A stretch of 64,000 nt of DNA from a virus (Duplodnaviria; Heunggongvirae; Uroviricota; Caudoviricetes), in the IMG/VR virus record IMGVR_UViG_2693429668_000006. One strand, given 5' to 3'. Each line of letters begins with the position of its first letter. Positions within the stretch are counted from its first letter, which is position 1. Shown here one piece after another: positions 3,886 through 56,993 of the stretch. A program made the position numbers and the translations under genes. The notes under the pieces are model-generated. The model was not told the origin of the DNA. It saw only the letters and a list, made by a program, of their open reading frames with translations, and did no database searches.

Positions 3886-3980
3886 GCGCTTTTCCTTTGT
3901 TCTCTAATGAGCGTTCAAGTTCTTATATAAATATACCATTAACTATGGTAAGTAGTTACTTATCATTAAGGCTGTTTTAA

Positions 3981-6089
3981 TTACTTCAAAATGATACGAG
4001 ATAGTTCAGTAACTACAGATGAACCAAGACTATCAACACTAGTTACCAGGGCATGATTTGCGTAAAATCTCTCCGGTGCATCAGTCATGATGCCAATTGC
4101 CATCAAATCAATGTCAGTCTGCGTTTCAATTTGCTTCGTAACCGAACGCAAATGGGCGTCAAAACCTCTCCCAACAGCCCACGGCGCGCCATCACTCAGA
4201 ACAAGCATGATCTTCCTGTCCTCCAAGCGACCGGAAAATAACGATGCAAGGCTGGCTATGCTTTCACCATCCACGTTATTAAGAAGTGGGAATGTGTAGC
4301 CTACGCACCCCATACGTGAGCGAACTTCGCGAGAATTTGCTTTTTCATTCCAATTTTTGATGATAGGTAGCATTAAAGATTCAAAGCGAGAGAACTCATA
4401 TTTGATAGCCTTAAGTTCTCCTGCTGCCATATGACTGCCAAATGTAGTGAAGCCGGTGATAATGTTGGGAACATTTATTCGATCAAGTGCATCGGCGATG
4501 GTATATGCACTTGCAAGAGCTAGTTTTATCGTTTCGCCACTCATTGAACCCGATAAATCAATCACTTGTTGAACACAGGCGTTAACGGCTTTAGATTCTT
4601 CTTTTTTACGAAACACGCGATCATCATTCATTGTTAATCTGTAGATACTTGAACCATGAATGCGCCCCCGACGCTGGCCAGGTATAAACTGAACTCTGTT
4701 TCTGCTTGCTATTGCACGTTCCAGGTCTTTTGCCAGCGTCGACGAAACACCTGACGAAAGGTGCTTTTCAATATATTTGTCGAAGAGCTGGTTGCCTTCA
4801 GGAACGATGCGATAACGGCTGATTGGATATCCACCTAAATCAATATCGGAGAATGTTTTAATAAGCCGTTTGATATGGGCTTCTGCCTGATCAATCGAGC
4901 CGATGAAGTCGTATGAGCGATTGTATGGCCTGTATTCGCTTTTCGAGCTTTCTGTTAACTCGCTTTTAATCGTTTCGGATAGCGCATCTTCTGTCATGCC
5001 TCCGACTTCATCTTCCATGCTATCCAACTCCTCTAAAGCCTCTTCCAGACTCATTTTTGACGGAGTTGGAATGTCTGAAGAGCCGTCTTCTGTCGATTTT
5101 CTTTTTTCGTGGTCAGTGGTAAATGATTCTGACGCCGCGTTATCAGAAGCACCAGAATCTGATACCTCTTTATCATTTTCTGTATCATCGAATATTGTTT
5201 CTGATGATTCAGAATTATCTGAATCATCACTGTCGTTATTATCATGTTTGTACTTACTGTGTGATTCTGATTTGATAGATTTGTGATTATCTAACGCTGA
5301 GGGTGTCTCATGATCTTCGTTGTCTTCATTGTTTTCTCCAGAGGCATCCGTCTGGTCAGCGTCTGAAGGATCGGAAGTTTTTCCCGGAGCTGACTCCTTA
5401 CCTTTGCTTTCACTTTCAGTGTCTTTGAGGATCTTAGCTATGGTCGCAGCCACCTTTACACAATCCTCGGTGCAAGACATGTTACGCACGGCCACATCGA
5501 TACCATGTTCTTTTAATAATGAAATTGGTTTCTCAATGACAGGCCAATATTCATCCATGAAATCTACGAACGGTGCTTGGCCATCCCAGGCTCTTACAAC
5601 CGGACAGAGAAAGAAGTTTAGAAAAAGCGCGCGCTGATCTTTGCCACAATAAGCAATAGCCTCTGAAGCCTTTGTTTTAAAGACTTTTTCGATTATAAGG
5701 CGCTGAGTTGCCATCAGATTACGTCTTGTTCCGTTAAAGACCTGACCCATTTTTCGCTCGATGAACACGTCTTCTAAGGCATTCCATAGCGACCAGGAAG
5801 GAACGCGTCCTTTTTCTCTCATTTTGTTGGACACACGAATATCGGTAAACAAAATGTGAGCAACCTCATGATCGAGAAATCCGCGCACAGCATTCATCAA
5901 TGCCGGTGTTGCGTTATCCGGGATTGATGGGATGTTTACGAGAATTGGCTCTCCATCATCGTTATAGCGTACATAAGCGTCGTCCCCTCGTTCTGCAACA
6001 GGGATGTTTTTACCTGAAAGGAGAGCGACTACTCGTTTTACACTGTCACGGAAGTCCTGAACCTCTTTGATGGAACGTTTTTTAGACAT
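3981..6089 (-). CDS. cobT: CobT-like von Willebrand factor A (vWA) domain protein with long acidic low-complexity linker
   Basis: 702 aa; C-terminal vWA with MIDAS motif VIDLSGSMSG; central ~130 aa extremely D/E/S-rich; paired with the AAA+ ATPase. Confidence 0.7.
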   Translation of the reverse strand: MSKKRSIKEVQDFRDSVKRVVALLSGKNIPVAERGDDAYVRYNDDGEPILVNIPSIPDNATPALMNAVRGFLDHEVAHILFTDIRVSNKMREKGRVPSWSLWNALEDVFIERKMGQVFNGTRRNLMATQRLIIEKVFKTKASEAIAYCGKDQRALFLNFFLCPVVRAWDGQAPFVDFMDEYWPVIEKPISLLKEHGIDVAVRNMSCTEDCVKVAATIAKILKDTESESKGKESAPGKTSDPSDADQTDASGENNEDNEDHETPSALDNHKSIKSESHSKYKHDNNDSDDSDNSESSETIFDDTENDKEVSDSGASDNAASESFTTDHEKRKSTEDGSSDIPTPSKMSLEEALEELDSMEDEVGGMTEDALSETIKSELTESSKSEYRPYNRSYDFIGSIDQAEAHIKRLIKTFSDIDLGGYPISRYRIVPEGNQLFDKYIEKHLSSGVSSTLAKDLERAIASRNRVQFIPGQRRGRIHGSSIYRLTMNDDRVFRKKEESKAVNACVQQVIDLSGSMSGETIKLALASAYTIADALDRINVPNIITGFTTFGSHMAAGELKAIKYEFSRFESLMLPIIKNWNEKANSREVRSRMGCVGYTFPLLNNVDGESIASLASLFSGRLEDRKIMLVLSDGAPWAVGRGFDAHLRSVTKQIETQTDIDLMAIGIMTDAPERFYANHALVTSVDSLGSSVVTELSRIILK

Positions 6090-6187
6090 GGCTAATCCTT
6101 TGTTATGAAAACAAATTATTTACTAGTGTGTTTAATGTAGCACTGCGCGAACAGGGAACTAAGCCATTCGCGCAGGGAGAAGAGGGG

Positions 6188-6400
6188 TTAACAGATTCTG
6201 ACGGCTAAAGACCCGGAGCCGGTATTGAGAAGCGTGAAGCGTTTGTTGTTAAGTTCGAATATAAAGCCAGTTGTGTCATTCACACCAACCTGAATCTGCT
6301 CATTCGGTAGATCGGTGAGGATGTCAGCTACACACTCATCAGCTAATTTCTGTACGTGTCCGATCTCAAGAGCGATTAGGCTGGAAATAGTGGTGTTCAT
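6188..6400 (-). CDS. hypothetical protein (70 aa)
   Basis: ORF track; sits at head of the minus-strand operon downstream of a divergent promoter region; no motif recognised. Confidence 0.4.
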   Translation of the reverse strand: MNTTISSLIALEIGHVQKLADECVADILTDLPNEQIQVGVNDTTGFIFELNNKRFTLLNTGSGSLAVRIC

Positions 6401-55566: not shown

Positions 55567-56264
55567 GCAGCCATCTCCCCGGAAGAGATCTTCTCCGCAT
55601 ATGCCACAAATGCGTCTACCCCGCTTTCTCCCGTCATTTCTTCCATATGGGCAAGCAAATCACCAACAACAATGGCAGAGCCAGCAGGGAGCGTTTTAAA
55701 GCCCAATACGTCGACAACACGTACTTCTTCCGCTGCAACTTCACGACTGATCTCGGTGTGTTCATCCTTCTGTCGTTTAGTTTCTTCGCCAAGATCGATA
55801 ACTAGCGAGTCGGTGTCCATTTCTTCTGTCATACTGCCAACGAGAACATTCAACTCACGCTCTTCAAAGCCGAAAACCTCGATATCGTCCAGAACAAGCG
55901 ACTCAAGCTCTTTCTGTAGCTTAATTGCATCGTAATCAATGCTGGCAAGTCGGTTATCTTCAAGGCGCTTCGCACGAACCTCGTCATCACTGAGATCATC
56001 GCGAACAATAACCGGTACGCGCTCAAGTCCAGCAAAAATTGCAGCCTCACGGCGGCCGTGGCCAGTAATAATTACGTCGTTCTTATCGACCGTAATTGGC
56101 TGGTCAAATCCGCGCTTTTTAATGGCTGCGGCTAGATCTCGGATCTGCTGTTCATCATGCTTTTTGGCATTCATCTCATAGGGAATAAGATCTGCCGGGT
56201 CGCGATATACGATTTCAAACTTTTTGGTCATTACATACGCTCCTTGTAGTAGTCGACCAGCCAC
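55563..56264 (-). CDS. ParB-like nuclease-domain protein (ParB/Srx fold)
   Basis: 233 aa; ParB N-domain motif IITGHGRREAA; acidic C-terminal half. Confidence 0.7.
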   Translation of the reverse strand: MAGRLLQGAYVMTKKFEIVYRDPADLIPYEMNAKKHDEQQIRDLAAAIKKRGFDQPITVDKNDVIITGHGRREAAIFAGLERVPVIVRDDLSDDEVRAKRLEDNRLASIDYDAIKLQKELESLVLDDIEVFGFEERELNVLVGSMTEEMDTDSLVIDLGEETKRQKDEHTEISREVAAEEVRVVDVLGFKTLPAGSAIVVGDLLAHMEEMTGESGVDAFVAYAEKISSGEMAA

Positions 56265-56929
56265 ACCAGAGCCTCACCAGCGTTCTCCATTTCATTACCG
56301 GTGTTAATAGCCTGCTCTTTGATGATGTTTTTTATGGTTTCTGCAACACGATCTGACGCATCGAAAGTTACTTTGAAGCGCATGGTCTGATGTTCCGCAC
56401 CCACACGTTCGGTTTTCTCTCGTTTGTCGGTATCGACAGGCTCATCACTACCACGAGACAACGCCTCCAGTGCTTCAAGGTCGATTGCCGCCTCTTTTGC
56501 TAAAACCATCGAGATTTCGTCGTCATACGGAGCGATTTCAGACAGTTGATAGTCAAGTTCTGACTGAATTTCTTCAATGAAGCGTTGCAATGCGATTTGG
56601 TCGTCTTCACCGTATCGCTCGTTGTCCACCAGTGACATCTGTTTAGCTACGACATCGCTAATTTTGCCCACAGAAAGCACCGGAACCGTTGAAATTCCTT
56701 GCTCAATAGCAGCACGCCAGCGATGTTCGCCGCCGAGGATTTCAAAAAATCCATCTTCAAGTTCACGAGCCAAAATTGGCTTAAAAAAGCCCAATTTTTC
56801 GATAGAACCTTTCAGTTTTTCAAAATTCTGCGCACCAACCGAATTGGTGTTCCAGGTATTCGGGCGAAGGTTGGCAACATCAACCTGCAAAATCGTGATT
56901 TTTACATCCATTTTATTGCTACAATCCAC
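56231..56929 (-). CDS. ParB-like nuclease-domain protein (second paralog)
   Basis: 232 aa; ParB N-domain motif ILGGEHRWRAA; overlaps downstream paralog by 34 nt. Confidence 0.7.
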   Translation of the reverse strand: MDCSNKMDVKITILQVDVANLRPNTWNTNSVGAQNFEKLKGSIEKLGFFKPILARELEDGFFEILGGEHRWRAAIEQGISTVPVLSVGKISDVVAKQMSLVDNERYGEDDQIALQRFIEEIQSELDYQLSEIAPYDDEISMVLAKEAAIDLEALEALSRGSDEPVDTDKREKTERVGAEHQTMRFKVTFDASDRVAETIKNIIKEQAINTGNEMENAGEALVWLVDYYKERM

Positions 56930-56993
56930 TAAGTAATCACTTACTTATTATAATAGCCAAATAACATACAAAAGGCACTAAGGAAAGAGGTTT

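What the first reader, a model, noticed from the sequence alone, without database searches (positions are those of the whole stretch)
3947..56949. Genome-wide palindromic intergenic motif GGTAAGTA-N-TACTTACC (about 19 sites)
A TAAGTA/TACTTA inverted-repeat motif recurs almost exclusively in intergenic regions just upstream of operon starts. Sites at approximately 3947-3964, 6607-6620, 8651-8669, 10219-10232, 12545-12566, 16069-16089, 21438-21459, 21564-21578, 27024-27044, 31234-31253, 38151-38173, 44640-44655 (perfect 16-mer GTAAGTATATACTTAC), 48218-48237, 50044-50057, 51641-51658, 53678-53692, 56929-56949; weaker at 6429-6443 and 10114-10123. One copy (6607-6620) overlaps the predicted transcription start of the XRE-family regulator gene, as expected for an autoregulated repressor operator. 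This looks like the regulon of one phage-encoded DNA-binding protein, or a phage-specific promoter class.
Basis: seen in the sequence. Interest (0 to 1): 0.7.

Follow-up and report, generated by a model that had tools for sequence, protein, structure and literature searches.

The report
Dispersed palindromic operator of a phage-plasmid
A short palindrome (GGTAAGTA..TACTTACC) sits in about a dozen gaps between the lytic genes of this SSU5-like phage-plasmid and most likely is the binding site through which one small phage repressor keeps the whole 100-kb virus silent while it lives as a plasmid.

Summary
The window is an SSU5/pHCM2-type phage-plasmid, 98% identical to Escherichia phage Cyrano. 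It holds 13 intergenic palindromic sites against 0.45 expected. TAAGTA occurs 29 times in 5.7 kb of intergenic DNA and 13 times in 58 kb of coding DNA.

The motif is family-wide. Salmonella SSU5 and Klebsiella plasmids carry it. Distant Acinetobacter relatives carry a variant with the same half-site (AGTAAGCGCTTACT), partly at the same gene junctions.

It is not an RNA hairpin and not a fixed-geometry promoter.

It tracks the lysogeny module:
- Lineages with the XRE regulator and integrase have it.
- Two lytic relatives with the same gene order and no XRE lack it.
- SSU5 lacks XRE through a recent ~3-kb deletion and still keeps the sites.

A copy sits at the predicted start site of the XRE promoter in both E. 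coli and Klebsiella.

Best reading: dispersed operators, partly stoperator-like roadblocks, for the Cro/CI-type XRE repressor. The identity of the binder is inferred, not shown. No description was found in the literature I could search. I rate it a new variant of a known kind, of moderate interest.

The parts
3945..3966 (.). Palindromic site, class B: ATGGTAAGTAGTTACTTATCAT. Lies at the junction between the CobT-like and MoxR/CobS-like genes.
   Evidence: 10-bp arms, 1 mismatch. The Acinetobacter plasmid has a site at the same junction (position 95916).
6607..6620 (.). Palindromic site, class A: GGTAAGCACTTACC. Lies at the predicted transcription start of the XRE gene.
   Evidence: It directly follows the promoter-like site at 6578-6605. 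Klebsiella has TTTACA-16-TAATAT-c-GGTAAGTACTTACC in the same place.
6578..6605 (+). Sigma-70-like promoter of the XRE gene: TTTACA-16 nt-TAATAT.
   Evidence: This is a consensus match only.
6652..7038 (+). XRE / Cro-CI-type HTH regulator, 128 aa. Candidate binder of the motif and likely lysogeny repressor.
   Evidence: PHROG 8 transcriptional regulator, E 1.3e-11. Pfam HTH_19 hit is below threshold. AlphaFold model has pLDDT 80, and its N-terminal 60-70 aa superpose on C.AhdI, P22 c2 and 434 repressor. Present in 865 plasmids, absent from SSU5.
6188..6400 (-). 70-aa gene transcribed divergently from XRE, in the position a Cro gene would occupy. First gene of the leftward CobT/MoxR/PolIII array.
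   Evidence: absent from SSU5, as XRE is; PHROG 2627, unknown function.
6429..6443 (.). Weak site before the 70-aa gene. On the minus strand it reads GTAGTATTCCTTACC, followed by ATAGT.
   Evidence: It shares CTTACCATAGT with the site at 3945-3966. Weak evidence.
8650..8669 (.). Partial site ATAGGTAAGTAAAAACCTAT: outer arms pair, inner right arm is degenerate. Upstream of accessory gene 8732-10060.
10219..10230 (.). Weak class-A-like site GTAAGGACTTAC, between convergent accessory genes.
   Evidence: It may be a chance match.
12546..12567 (.). Palindromic site GATAAGTAAGTAAATACTTATC. Lies 9 nt after the stop codon of gene 12577-12867 and upstream of the tRNA cluster.
16070..16087 (.). Palindromic site TAAGTATGTATCTACTTA, upstream of gene 15245-16027.
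21439..21459 (.). Site GTAGGTAGTTACTTACTTATC, 3 nt before the start of gene 20686-21435 (first gene of the helicase/primase array).
27024..27043 (.). Palindromic site GTAGGTATATACTTACCTAC, between the tail fibre gene and the holin gene.
31235..31253 (.). Palindromic site TAAGTAAATACTTACCTAT, between the J-like tail gene and the tail fibre gene. A GC hairpin follows at 31212-31232.
38151..38173 (.). Site with tandem half-sites. On the minus strand it reads GATAAGTAAGTACTAATTTACTA. Lies at the junction of tail genes M and L; a GC hairpin follows at 38121-38143.
44640..44655 (.). Perfect 16-bp palindrome GTAAGTATATACTTAC, upstream of the tail tube gene.
   Evidence: It overlaps a sigma-70-like match, TTGAAT-18-TATACT. 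The Acinetobacter plasmid has a site at the same junction (position 25576).
48216..48233 (.). Class A palindrome TAGATAATTACTTATCTA, 9 nt after the stop codon of the major capsid gene. A terminator-like hairpin follows at 48192-48208.
   Evidence: The orthologous site in Klebsiella is a perfect AATAGGTAAGTACTTACCTATT.
50044..50057 (-). Half-site only. On the minus strand it reads GTGATAAGTAACA. Lies between the portal gene and the next gene.
   Evidence: No inverted partner was found.
51639..51656 (.). Class A palindrome TAGATAATTACTTACCTA at the junction of the large terminase and portal genes. The terminase stop codon TAG lies inside it.
   Evidence: The Acinetobacter plasmid has a site at the same junction (position 32616).
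56930..56947 (.). Palindromic site TAAGTAATCACTTACTTA in the divergent region between the ParB-like/terminase array and the UvsW-helicase/FljA-like array. It overlaps a TATAAT on each strand.
   Evidence: The Acinetobacter plasmid has a site at the same divergent junction (position 39948).
21543..21600 (.). 58-nt imperfect hairpin repeat with ATAAGT-N-ACTTAT at its tip, upstream of the replication array.
   Evidence: (z = -6.6). A related element, not a standard site.
53653..53714 (.). Second copy of the 58-nt hairpin repeat, upstream of the small terminase gene.
   Evidence: (z = -5.0)

Best explanation
The palindromes are DNA operators for one small dimeric phage regulator. The most likely candidate is the 128-aa Cro/CI-type XRE protein encoded at 6652-7038, acting as the lysogeny repressor of this phage-plasmid.

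Proposed mechanism (inferred):
- In the plasmid (prophage) state the repressor occupies about 13 sites in this window, and about 24 or more in the whole 108-kb genome.
- Where a site overlaps a sigma-70-type promoter, it blocks initiation.
- Where a site sits in a tight gene junction with no promoter, it acts as a roadblock to read-through transcription, as the stoperators of cluster A mycobacteriophages do.
- The copy at its own transcription start gives negative autoregulation.

Shown here: the motif, its enrichment, its intergenic placement, its family-wide conservation, and its co-occurrence with the XRE/integrase module.

Inferred: that XRE is the binder, that binding represses, and that junction sites stop elongation.
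For: 1. Real and intergenic: 13 sites vs 0.45 expected; TAAGTA 29 intergenic vs 13 coding.

2. Self-contained symmetric motif. Conservation runs from about -6 to +16 around TAAGTA, with nothing fixed outside it.

3. DNA rather than RNA. Arm mismatches show no sense-strand G.U bias: 31 vs 40 in enterobacterial sites, 9 vs 13 in Acinetobacter. Hairpin energies are only -2 to -4.5 kcal/mol.

4. Family-wide.
- ATAAGTAA is 19 vs 1.4 expected in SSU5 and 22 vs 3.0 in Cyrano.
- GGTAAGTA is 9 vs 0.6 in Klebsiella.
- Acinetobacter relatives (capsid protein 59% identical) carry TATTAGTAAGCGCTTACTAATA; TAAGCGCTTA is 26 vs 0.3 expected. It shares the GTAAG/CTTAC half-site.
- Acinetobacter sites fall at orthologous junctions: terL-portal, before the tail tube gene, CobT-MoxR, the ParB/helicase divergent region, RuvC-NrdA and UvsY-SSB.

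5. Linked to the lysogeny module.
- XRE is found in 865 plasmids, against 953 with the capsid gene, with matching genus counts.
- In the phage collection, XRE occurs only in the phage-plasmid group.
- Lytic ~110-kb relatives with the same synteny and no XRE or integrase have no recurrent intergenic palindrome. These are Pseudomonas phage nickie and Stenotrophomonas phage BUCTxx99.
- SSU5 lacks XRE through a ~3-kb deletion relative to plasmids 93.7% identical to it, and still keeps the sites. This parallels lytic mycobacteriophage D29, described as a deletion derivative of a temperate parent (PMC5712189).

6. A site at the predicted +1 of the XRE promoter is conserved between E. coli and Klebsiella.

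7. The XRE recognition-helix segment N-x-NNLSLIKSGK is nearly invariant across enterobacterial homologues that are 55-99% identical overall. It differs in Acinetobacter (NQNMVSFIVRGK), where the motif differs.

8. The XRE model has the Cro/CI HTH fold.

9. Sigma-70-like promoters overlap about a third of sites in the sense direction, but at variable register. One example is TTGAAA-17-TATCAT with the palindrome in the spacer. Variable register is typical of operators, not of a promoter element.

10. I saw no full site in the gaps next to the plasmid-maintenance genes. The parA/antitoxin gap 24394-24672 has no hit in the or 68 lists. The repA upstream region in Cyrano has only one half-site.
Against: - No binding data exist. 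Everything else confined to the temperate lineages is equally correlated with the motif: the integrase, the 70-aa Cro-position protein and the ParA partition genes.
- The contrast between XRE-positive and XRE-negative lineages is essentially one or two phylogenetic events, not many independent ones.
- Two spacing classes coexist in one genome: GGTAAGT.ACTTACC and GGTAAGTA-NN-TACTTACC, 4 bp apart. This is awkward for one rigid dimer.
- Exact TAAGTA half-sites in the late region are all on the sense strand. A symmetric operator does not predict that.
- A site also precedes accessory gene 8732-10060, of unknown function, which might be expected to be expressed in lysogeny.
- Roadblock activity has been shown only for an unrelated monomeric repressor in mycobacteriophages.
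Confidence: 0.5

Rival explanations
1. The motif is a phage-specific promoter class. The palindrome would replace the -35 element and be bound by a phage-encoded activator, as in P1 late promoters that depend on Lpa. The AT-rich outer arm (TATCAT, TACTAT, TATAAT) would serve as the -10 element.
For: - The outer arms look like -10 hexamers.
- In Acinetobacter, 6 of 22 sites have a perfect TATAAT right after CTTAC in the sense direction. Sense -10 scores exceed antisense scores (mean 4.85 vs 3.95; 14 of 22).
- In enterobacterial genomes the best sigma-70-like score is higher in the sense direction: 5.5 vs 4.4; 25 of 37 sites; 12 vs 1 sites scoring 7 or more.
- Sites precede nearly all lytic gene blocks.
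Against: - The Acinetobacter asymmetry is not significant (p = 0.086).
- In enterobacterial genomes -10-like hexamers flank the palindrome equally on both sides (12 vs 10; 6 vs 6).
- The register of the best promoter varies from -14 to +30 relative to the palindrome centre.
- Several sites are 0-20 nt from the start codon and leave no leader.
- Three sites are followed at once by GC hairpins, one with a T-run.
- Lytic relatives express the same gene set without any such motif.
- No activator, sigma factor or RNA polymerase is annotated in Cyrano or SSU5. The Acinetobacter 'sigma-70 family' protein is a sub-threshold hit with no homologue in them.
Confidence: 0.2
2. The motif acts in the mRNA. 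It would be a small hairpin at the 3' end of each cistron (like REP elements) or a site for an RNA-binding protein or RNase. One candidate binder is the FljA-like protein at 59252-59854, whose Salmonella relative blocks translation of fliC mRNA.
For: - Exact half-sites are on the sense strand only.
- Sites hug stop codons and often lie within 11-24 nt of the next start codon.
- The window encodes a full-length PF03614 (FljA family) protein, E 2.5e-84, with a faint Hfq-like hit.
- FljA-type proteins prevent fliC mRNA translation (PMC2652032).
- The E. coli fliC leader contains ATAGGATAACGAA just before the ATG, which loosely resembles ATAGGTAAGTAA.
Against: - Arm mismatches show no G.U bias on the sense strand.
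- The stems are weak.
- Strong sequence conservation, rather than covariation, argues against structure alone.
- The FljA-like gene is absent from the Acinetobacter plasmid, which has the related motif.
- The fliC resemblance is short and was looked for after the fact.
- I could not retrieve the papers that define the FljA target.
Confidence: 0.1
3. The palindromes serve another DNA-level function tied to the plasmid lifestyle. Options are KorB/ParB-type binding sites (global regulation plus partition), target sites of the adjacent tyrosine integrase, or sites for a host factor.
For: - The motif is confined to the lineages that carry the plasmid/lysogeny genes, so it co-occurs with the integrase and ParA as well as with XRE.
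- Two ParB-like genes lie next to site 56930-56947.
- Inverted arms around a short spacer superficially resemble recombinase core sites.
Against: - The ParB-like genes are also present in the lytic relatives that lack the motif.
- Dozens of recombinase sites in one genome would scramble it.
- The strict restriction to gene junctions, and the copy at the XRE promoter, point to transcription.
- A scan of viral contigs gave multiple hits mainly in contigs of 60-113 kb, several near 111 kb. Their family was not checked, so this is only weak evidence against a general host-factor site.
Confidence: 0.1
4. The motif is a by-product of stop-codon-rich punctuation. The left arm TAGGTAAGTAA carries stop codons in all three frames because of its 4-base period. 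It might simply end stray translation between cistrons.
For: TAGGTAAGTAA and GATAGATAAGTAA contain TAG/TAA in three frames. Several genes use the motif's TAG or TAA as their own stop codon: terL at 51654-51656, and the genes ending at 49144 and 38181.
Against: - Any stop-rich sequence would serve, yet specific G and T positions and a palindromic partner are conserved across genera.
- The Acinetobacter version has stops in only two frames (read from the consensus).
- This does not explain the copy at the XRE promoter.
- Lytic relatives with equally tight junctions lack the motif.
Confidence: 0.03

Closest known systems
Stoperators and operators of cluster A mycobacteriophages (L5 gp71, Bxb1, TipsytheTRex repressors)
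   Same: - More than twenty repressor sites are spread over the whole phage genome. They lie in promoters and in short intergenic spaces, and are proposed to stop both initiation and elongation (PMC9283540).
- A lytic member, D29, is described as a deletion derivative of a temperate parent (PMC5712189). SSU5 looks the same here.
   Different: - Those sites are asymmetric 13-mers bound by a monomer with two DNA-binding domains, and they work in only one orientation.
- Here the sites are 14-22-bp palindromes. The candidate binder is a small Cro/CI-type protein, the host is Gram-negative, and the element is a plasmid prophage.
- The proteins are not homologous.
Phage P1 C1 repressor with its many dispersed operators (from memory; I could not retrieve the P1 genome paper)
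   Same: P1 is also a phage-plasmid whose master repressor controls many operators scattered around a ~100-kb genome, rather than one immunity region.
   Different: P1 operators are asymmetric 17-mers located at promoters of early functions. P1 late genes use a separate Lpa-dependent promoter class. Here one motif covers replication, recombination, nucleotide-metabolism, structural and lysis genes.
Classical Cro/CI-type operators (434, P22 c2, C-proteins of restriction-modification systems)
   Same: - The predicted fold of the XRE N-terminal domain superposes on P22 c2, 434 repressor and C.AhdI at 1.4-1.9 A over about 60 residues.
- The operators are 14-18-bp palindromes.
- A copy at the regulator's own promoter would give autoregulation.
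   Different: Classical systems have 2-6 operators clustered in one immunity region. Here dozens are dispersed, there are two spacing classes, and many sites have no recognisable promoter.
KorB operators (OB) of IncP plasmid RK2 (from memory)
   Same: About a dozen copies of one palindrome are scattered over a plasmid genome, at or at some distance from promoters. They are bound by one global repressor.
   Different: KorB is a ParB-family protein. Here the ParB-like genes are also present in lytic relatives that lack the motif, so they are unlikely binders.

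Membership tests
Stoperator system (cluster A mycobacteriophages) | Twenty or more copies of one repressor site distributed over the whole phage genome | tested here: met
   13-14 sites in the 64-kb window. 24 in Cyrano and 27 in SSU5 under the same definition.
Stoperator system (cluster A mycobacteriophages) | Sites lie in short intergenic spaces within gene arrays as well as at promoters | tested here: met
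   Sites lie 0-62 nt before the next start codon and often 8-14 nt after the preceding stop codon. About one third overlap sigma-70-like promoters.
Stoperator system (cluster A mycobacteriophages) | Asymmetric 13-mer bound by a monomer; site orientation follows the direction of transcription | tested here: not met
   The sites are palindromes. Only the exact half-sites show a sense-strand bias.
Stoperator system (cluster A mycobacteriophages) | Repressor binding stops transcription elongation | not testable with these tools
   Needs reporter or in vitro transcription assays.
Cro/CI-type (XRE) repressor-operator pair | The regulator has the five-helix HTH fold | tested here: met
   PHROG 8, E 1.3e-11. 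The model (pLDDT 80) superposes on C.AhdI, P22 c2 and 434. The Pfam HTH_19 hit is below threshold. Foldseek E-values are weak (0.004 or higher).
Cro/CI-type (XRE) repressor-operator pair | A palindromic operator overlaps the regulator's own promoter | tested here: met
   GGTAAGCACTTACC lies directly after TTTACA-16-TAATAT. The arrangement is conserved in Klebsiella. The promoter is predicted, not mapped.
Cro/CI-type (XRE) repressor-operator pair | The protein binds the operator | not testable with these tools
   Only indirect evidence: co-occurrence and co-variation of the recognition helix with the motif.
Activator-dependent late promoter (P1 Lpa type) | A -10 hexamer at a fixed distance from an inverted repeat centred near -22 | tested here: not met
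   The register is variable and -10-like hexamers occur symmetrically in enterobacterial genomes. The asymmetry in Acinetobacter is only suggestive, p = 0.086.
Activator-dependent late promoter (P1 Lpa type) | An Lpa-like activator gene is present | not tested
   None is annotated in Cyrano or SSU5. I did not search directly with the Lpa sequence.
Repetitive extragenic palindrome / mRNA hairpin | A stable stem-loop maintained by compensatory or wobble changes on the transcribed strand | tested here: not met
   Folding energy is -2 to -4.5 kcal/mol. G.U-compatible mismatches are 31 on the sense strand vs 40 on the antisense strand.
FljA family (PF03614) regulator with an mRNA target | A protein of the family is encoded | tested here: met
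   window 59252-59854: E 2.5e-84, profile positions 1-170 of 170.
FljA family (PF03614) regulator with an mRNA target | The motif is its binding site | tested here: inconclusive
   The gene is absent from the Acinetobacter plasmid that has the related motif. The resemblance to the fliC leader is short. The target-defining papers were not retrievable.

The most novel reading that the evidence does not exclude
SSU5/pHCM2/pMT1-type phage-plasmids, about 900 plasmids in Enterobacterales and Acinetobacter, may silence their roughly 100-kb lytic genome with a stoperator-like network that arose independently of the mycobacteriophage one. In this reading a small dimeric Cro/CI-type repressor binds dozens of palindromes placed at gene junctions, blocks both initiation and read-through, and co-evolves with its site. 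The half-site would be kept while spacing and outer arms change between Enterobacterales and Acinetobacter. The two spacing classes would reflect two binding modes or a second partner, namely the Cro-position 70-aa protein or the FljA-like protein.
Probability: 0.35. Interest if true: 0.65.

Novelty: new variant of a known kind. Interest (0 to 1): 0.55.

Why it matters
SSU5-like phage-plasmids are very common in clinical Klebsiella, E. coli, Enterobacter and Salmonella, and include Yersinia pestis pMT1. The capsid gene alone hits 953 plasmids in PLSDB. Some carry resistance genes (PMC9600943). I found no description of how they stay quiet as plasmids or how they switch to lytic growth.

If the reading holds, it gives three things:
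- A single repressor with a mapped set of about 40 operators, which is a directly testable model of that switch.
- An explanation of why SSU5 itself is lytic, through loss of the XRE/integrase module.
- A simple sequence signature for recognising members of the family and predicting their immunity groups.

It would also show that genome-wide roadblock-type silencing is not peculiar to mycobacteriophages.

Tried and rejected
1. XRE ruled out because SSU5 lacks it. I reversed this. SSU5 is a recent ~3-kb deletion derivative, and XRE is core to the plasmid family.

2. FljA-like protein as the binder. It is absent from the Acinetobacter relative that has the related motif. The papers defining its target could not be retrieved. 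I kept it only as a minor rival.

3. A phage sigma factor. The Acinetobacter plasmid annotates a sigma-70 family protein. It is a sub-threshold Sigma70_r2 hit and has no homologue in Cyrano or SSU5.

4. Fixed promoter geometry. Position-frequency tables and sigma-70 scoring showed no conserved flanking element.

5. RNA hairpin. There is no wobble bias and the folds are weak.

6. Three-frame stop punctuation. The property is not kept in Acinetobacter.

7. Resemblance to the NarL heptamer TACYYMT and to the P22 c2 half-site TTAAG. These come from memory only and were not pursued.

8. Literature. Full-text searches for SSU5, pHCM2, promoter, operator and the literal motif strings found no description.

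9. A viral-contig scan for GTAAGTANNTACTTAC. Hits were mostly single and in unrelated contigs, so it was uninformative. The exception was multiple hits in contigs of 60-113 kb, several near 111 kb.

10. Thauera plasmid with a distant XRE hit. It is a conjugative plasmid, not a relative.

Full report
**What the window is.** Megablast of 27000-47000 gives 98% identity over 99% of the query to Escherichia phage Cyrano (pLF82). It gives about 80% identity to Salmonella phage SSU5. Cyrano is the SSU5-like phage-plasmid of E. coli LF82 (PMC9928086). The window's minus strand corresponds to the Cyrano plus strand. The window carries these blocks:
- part of DNA polymerase III alpha, plus CobS-like and CobT-like genes;
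- an XRE regulator with an integrase;
- a tRNA cluster;
- ligase, primase and helicase genes;
- ParA and toxin-antitoxin genes;
- lysis genes;
- the whole tail, head and terminase block;
- a divergent UvsW-helicase array.

The counts are as follows.
- TAAGTA-N0-8-TACTTA occurs 7 times vs 0.02 expected.
- GTAAGTA occurs 17 times vs 4.75 expected.
- GGTAAGTA is the second most over-represented 8-mer, 11 vs 0.9; only Chi ranks higher.
- TAAGTA occurs 29 times in 5.7 kb of intergenic DNA and 13 times in 58 kb of coding DNA. Shuffles of the intergenic DNA give 5.4 on average and at most 13.
- With an explicit palindrome definition, 14 sites are found and 13 of them are intergenic. Markov simulations of the intergenic DNA give 0.45.

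**Anatomy of the motif.** Aligning sites on TAAGTA shows conservation only from about -6 to +16, with nothing fixed further out. The full consensus is roughly (AT)GATAGGTAAGTA-NN-TACTTACCTATC(AT). The arms are built from tandem 4-mers (GATA GGTA AGTA).

Two spacing classes coexist:
- Class B is GGTAAGTA-NN-TACTTACC. Examples are 3945, 12546, 21439, 27024, 31235 and the perfect 44640-44655.
- Class A is GGTAAGT.ACTTACC, 4 bp tighter. Examples are 6607, 48216 and 51639.

- 50044 and 10114 are half-sites.
- 6429 and 10219 are weak.
- 21564 and 53678 are the tips of a separate 58-nt hairpin repeat.

In the window the palindrome edge lies 8-14 nt from the preceding stop codon at seven junctions. 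At terL it contains the stop codon. It lies 0-62 nt before the next start codon. Across Cyrano, SSU5 and Klebsiella, site centres lie within 33 nt of the upstream stop codon in 24 of 37 cases.

**The motif is a family property.**
- In SSU5, ATAAGTAA is 19 vs 1.4 expected. In Cyrano it is 22 vs 3.0.
- In a Klebsiella plasmid, GGTAAGTA is 9 vs 0.6.
- The capsid protein finds 953 plasmids, including 139 from Acinetobacter at 56-59% identity.
- One of these, pAF-673, has the same gene order and its own hyper-enriched palindrome, TATTAGTAAGCGCTTACTAATA. TAAGCGCTTA is 26 vs 0.3 expected, with 22 sites, nearly all intergenic. It keeps the GTAAG/CTTAC half-site and has class A spacing.
- Sites occupy orthologous junctions in the two lineages: terL-portal, before the tail tube gene, CobT-MoxR, the ParB/helicase divergent region, RuvC-NrdA and UvsY-SSB.

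So the architecture is old and co-evolves with whatever binds it.

**DNA or RNA?** Mismatches between the arms show no preference for G.U-compatible pairs on the transcribed strand: 31 vs 40 in enterobacterial sites and 9 vs 13 in Acinetobacter. The small palindromes fold weakly, at -2 to -4.5 kcal/mol. Strong sequence identity among dozens of copies also points to sequence-specific recognition of DNA rather than to a structure.

**Promoter class?** Several results argue against it.
- No conserved -10 or -35 lies at a fixed distance from the motif.
- -10-like hexamers formed by the outer arms occur equally on both sides.
- Sigma-70-like promoters overlap about a third of sites in the sense direction, but at variable register. 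Twelve sites score 7 or more in the sense direction against one in the antisense direction. One clear case is TTGAAA-17-TATCAT with the palindrome in the spacer, after a terminator.
- In Acinetobacter the sense arm is more often TATAAT, but the asymmetry is not significant (p = 0.086).
- Several sites leave no room for a leader.
- Three sites are followed at once by GC hairpins, one a terminator-like hairpin after the capsid gene.
- No RNA polymerase or sigma factor is annotated in Cyrano or SSU5. The Acinetobacter 'sigma' is a sub-threshold hit without a homologue in them.

Variable register over real promoters, together with sites in promoter-less junctions, is what operators and roadblocks look like.

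**Who binds?** I first set XRE aside, because SSU5 has the motif but lacks XRE, the integrase and the 70-aa neighbour. I then followed a full-length FljA-family protein at 59252-59854. FljA proteins block fliC mRNA translation (PMC2652032). That gene is missing from the Acinetobacter plasmid, whereas XRE has a homologue there, next to an integrase.

Further evidence points to XRE.
- XRE is found in 865 plasmids, with genus counts matching those of the capsid gene.
- In the phage collection it occurs only in the phage-plasmid group.
- SSU5 is a ~3-kb deletion derivative of plasmids 93.7% identical to it. Its retained sites therefore say nothing against XRE. The case mirrors lytic D29 among stoperator phages (PMC5712189).
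- Two lytic ~110-kb relatives with the same synteny but no XRE or integrase have no recurrent intergenic palindrome. These are Pseudomonas phage nickie and Stenotrophomonas phage BUCTxx99. Their top intergenic 8-mer occurs in 5 of 79 and 4 of 34 gaps. The figures are 18 of 85 in Cyrano and 19 of 90 in Acinetobacter.
- A class A palindrome sits right after a TTTACA-16-TAATAT promoter of the XRE gene in both E. coli and Klebsiella. The Acinetobacter XRE upstream region carries half-sites next to a TATAAT.
- The XRE helix segment N-x-NNLSLIKSGK is almost invariant among enterobacterial homologues that are 55-99% identical overall. It differs in Acinetobacter, matching the motif difference.
- The XRE model (pLDDT 80) has a Cro/CI HTH domain that superposes on C.AhdI, P22 c2 and 434 repressor, followed by a helical C-terminal part.

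**Most likely mechanism.** XRE dimers occupy the palindromes in the plasmid state. Sites that overlap promoters block initiation. Junction sites act as roadblocks to read-through. The copy at +1 of the XRE promoter gives autoregulation. The 70-aa protein in the Cro position may compete for the same sites. None of these steps is shown here; all are inferred from placement, co-occurrence and analogy.

**Points against this reading.**
- The two spacing classes are awkward for one rigid dimer.
- Exact half-sites show a sense-strand bias.
- The motif is equally correlated with the integrase, ParA and the 70-aa protein.
- The number of independent phylogenetic contrasts is small.

**Comparison with known systems.** The closest analogue is the stoperator/operator network of cluster A mycobacteriophages. 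It has more than twenty sites, located in promoters and short intergenic spaces, which stop initiation and elongation (PMC9283540). That family is defined by asymmetric 13-mers, monomer binding and orientation dependence. Those features are not met here, so this is an analogue, not a member. P1 C1 and RK2 KorB are further analogues of dispersed operators; I cite both from memory. As a regulator-operator pair it fits the Cro/CI type, except that dozens of sites are dispersed.

**Novelty.** Full-text searches found no description of the motif. I rate it a new variant of a known kind. The interest is moderate because the family is very common in clinical Enterobacterales and its lysis-lysogeny control is uncharacterised.

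Noticed in passing
window, 15 positions (e.g. 1580, 13694, 21855, 34864, 50972, 62177): The E. coli Chi sequence GCTGGTGG is the most over-represented 8-mer in the window: 15 sites on both strands vs 1.3 expected. Cyrano has 25 and SSU5 has 31. There is no strong strand bias (6 plus vs 9 minus in the window).
   Followed up: partly
window 59252-59854 (+); the true start is probably near 59331: Full-length FljA-family protein (Pfam PF03614 'repressor of phase-1 flagellin', E 2.5e-84). It is the last gene of the UvsW-helicase/lipoprotein array. It is conserved in enterobacterial SSU5-like elements and absent from the Acinetobacter relative. It might let the phage-plasmid shut off host flagellin synthesis.
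   Followed up: partly
window 21543-21600 and 53653-53714: Two copies of a 58-nt imperfect hairpin, GACCTGCTTC..GTATATA..ATAAGT-N-ACTTAT..TATATAC..GAAGCAGGTC. DNA-fold z-scores are -6.6 and -5.0. They lie upstream of the replication array and of the small terminase gene. The element is also present in SSU5 and Klebsiella. The Cyrano and SSU5 records start and end next to it. Its function is unknown.
   Followed up: partly
L004 (SSU5) around 42600-42760, compared with window 6188-8136: SSU5, isolated as a lytic phage, lacks the XRE regulator, the integrase and the 70-aa gene. Plasmids 93.7% identical to it carry about 3 kb more at this spot. SSU5 therefore looks like a repressor-deletion derivative of a phage-plasmid.
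   Followed up: yes
L129-L131 (Acinetobacter baumannii pAF-673), e.g. 32616, 25576, 95916: Acinetobacter ~110-kb phage-plasmids carry their own 22-bp palindrome, TATTAGTAAGCGCTTACTAATA, at about 22 gene junctions. They also carry a weak sigma-70-like gene (93891-94556) that has no counterpart in the enterobacterial elements.
   Followed up: partly
window 8732-10060, 10312-10866, 16153-18047, 21608-23314: Accessory genes absent from Cyrano and SSU5. They include a 442-aa protein with no family hit, a Sel1-repeat protein (16794-18047, on the opposite strand, next to the primase gene) and a KAP-family P-loop NTPase (21608-23314) that looks like a defence gene.
   Followed up: partly
window 11160-11787 (-): Cluster of four tRNA genes (Ser-TGA, Thr-TGT, Tyr-GTA, Asn-GTT). 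The small plus-strand ORFs listed over this stretch are spurious.
   Followed up: yes
window 48192-48208, 47221-47242, 38121-38143, 31212-31232: GC-rich hairpins sit in gaps of the structural gene array. The one after the capsid gene has a T-run (a partial terminator). Three of the four lie directly downstream of a motif copy.
   Followed up: no
window 2467, 14745, 19218 (minus strand) and nine AGAAAACAA sites: A recurrent start-codon context, AAAACACATG, and a second intergenic word, AGAAAACAA, recur. They occur in 7-10 gaps in Cyrano. This may be a shared translation-initiation context for one set of genes.
   Followed up: no
window 18545, 44918, 46023, 50746: The palindrome TACCGGTA occurs at 4 positions, all inside genes. 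It counts as 8 on both strands vs 0.7 expected. This is unexplained and may be chance or a restriction/modification-related word.
   Followed up: partly
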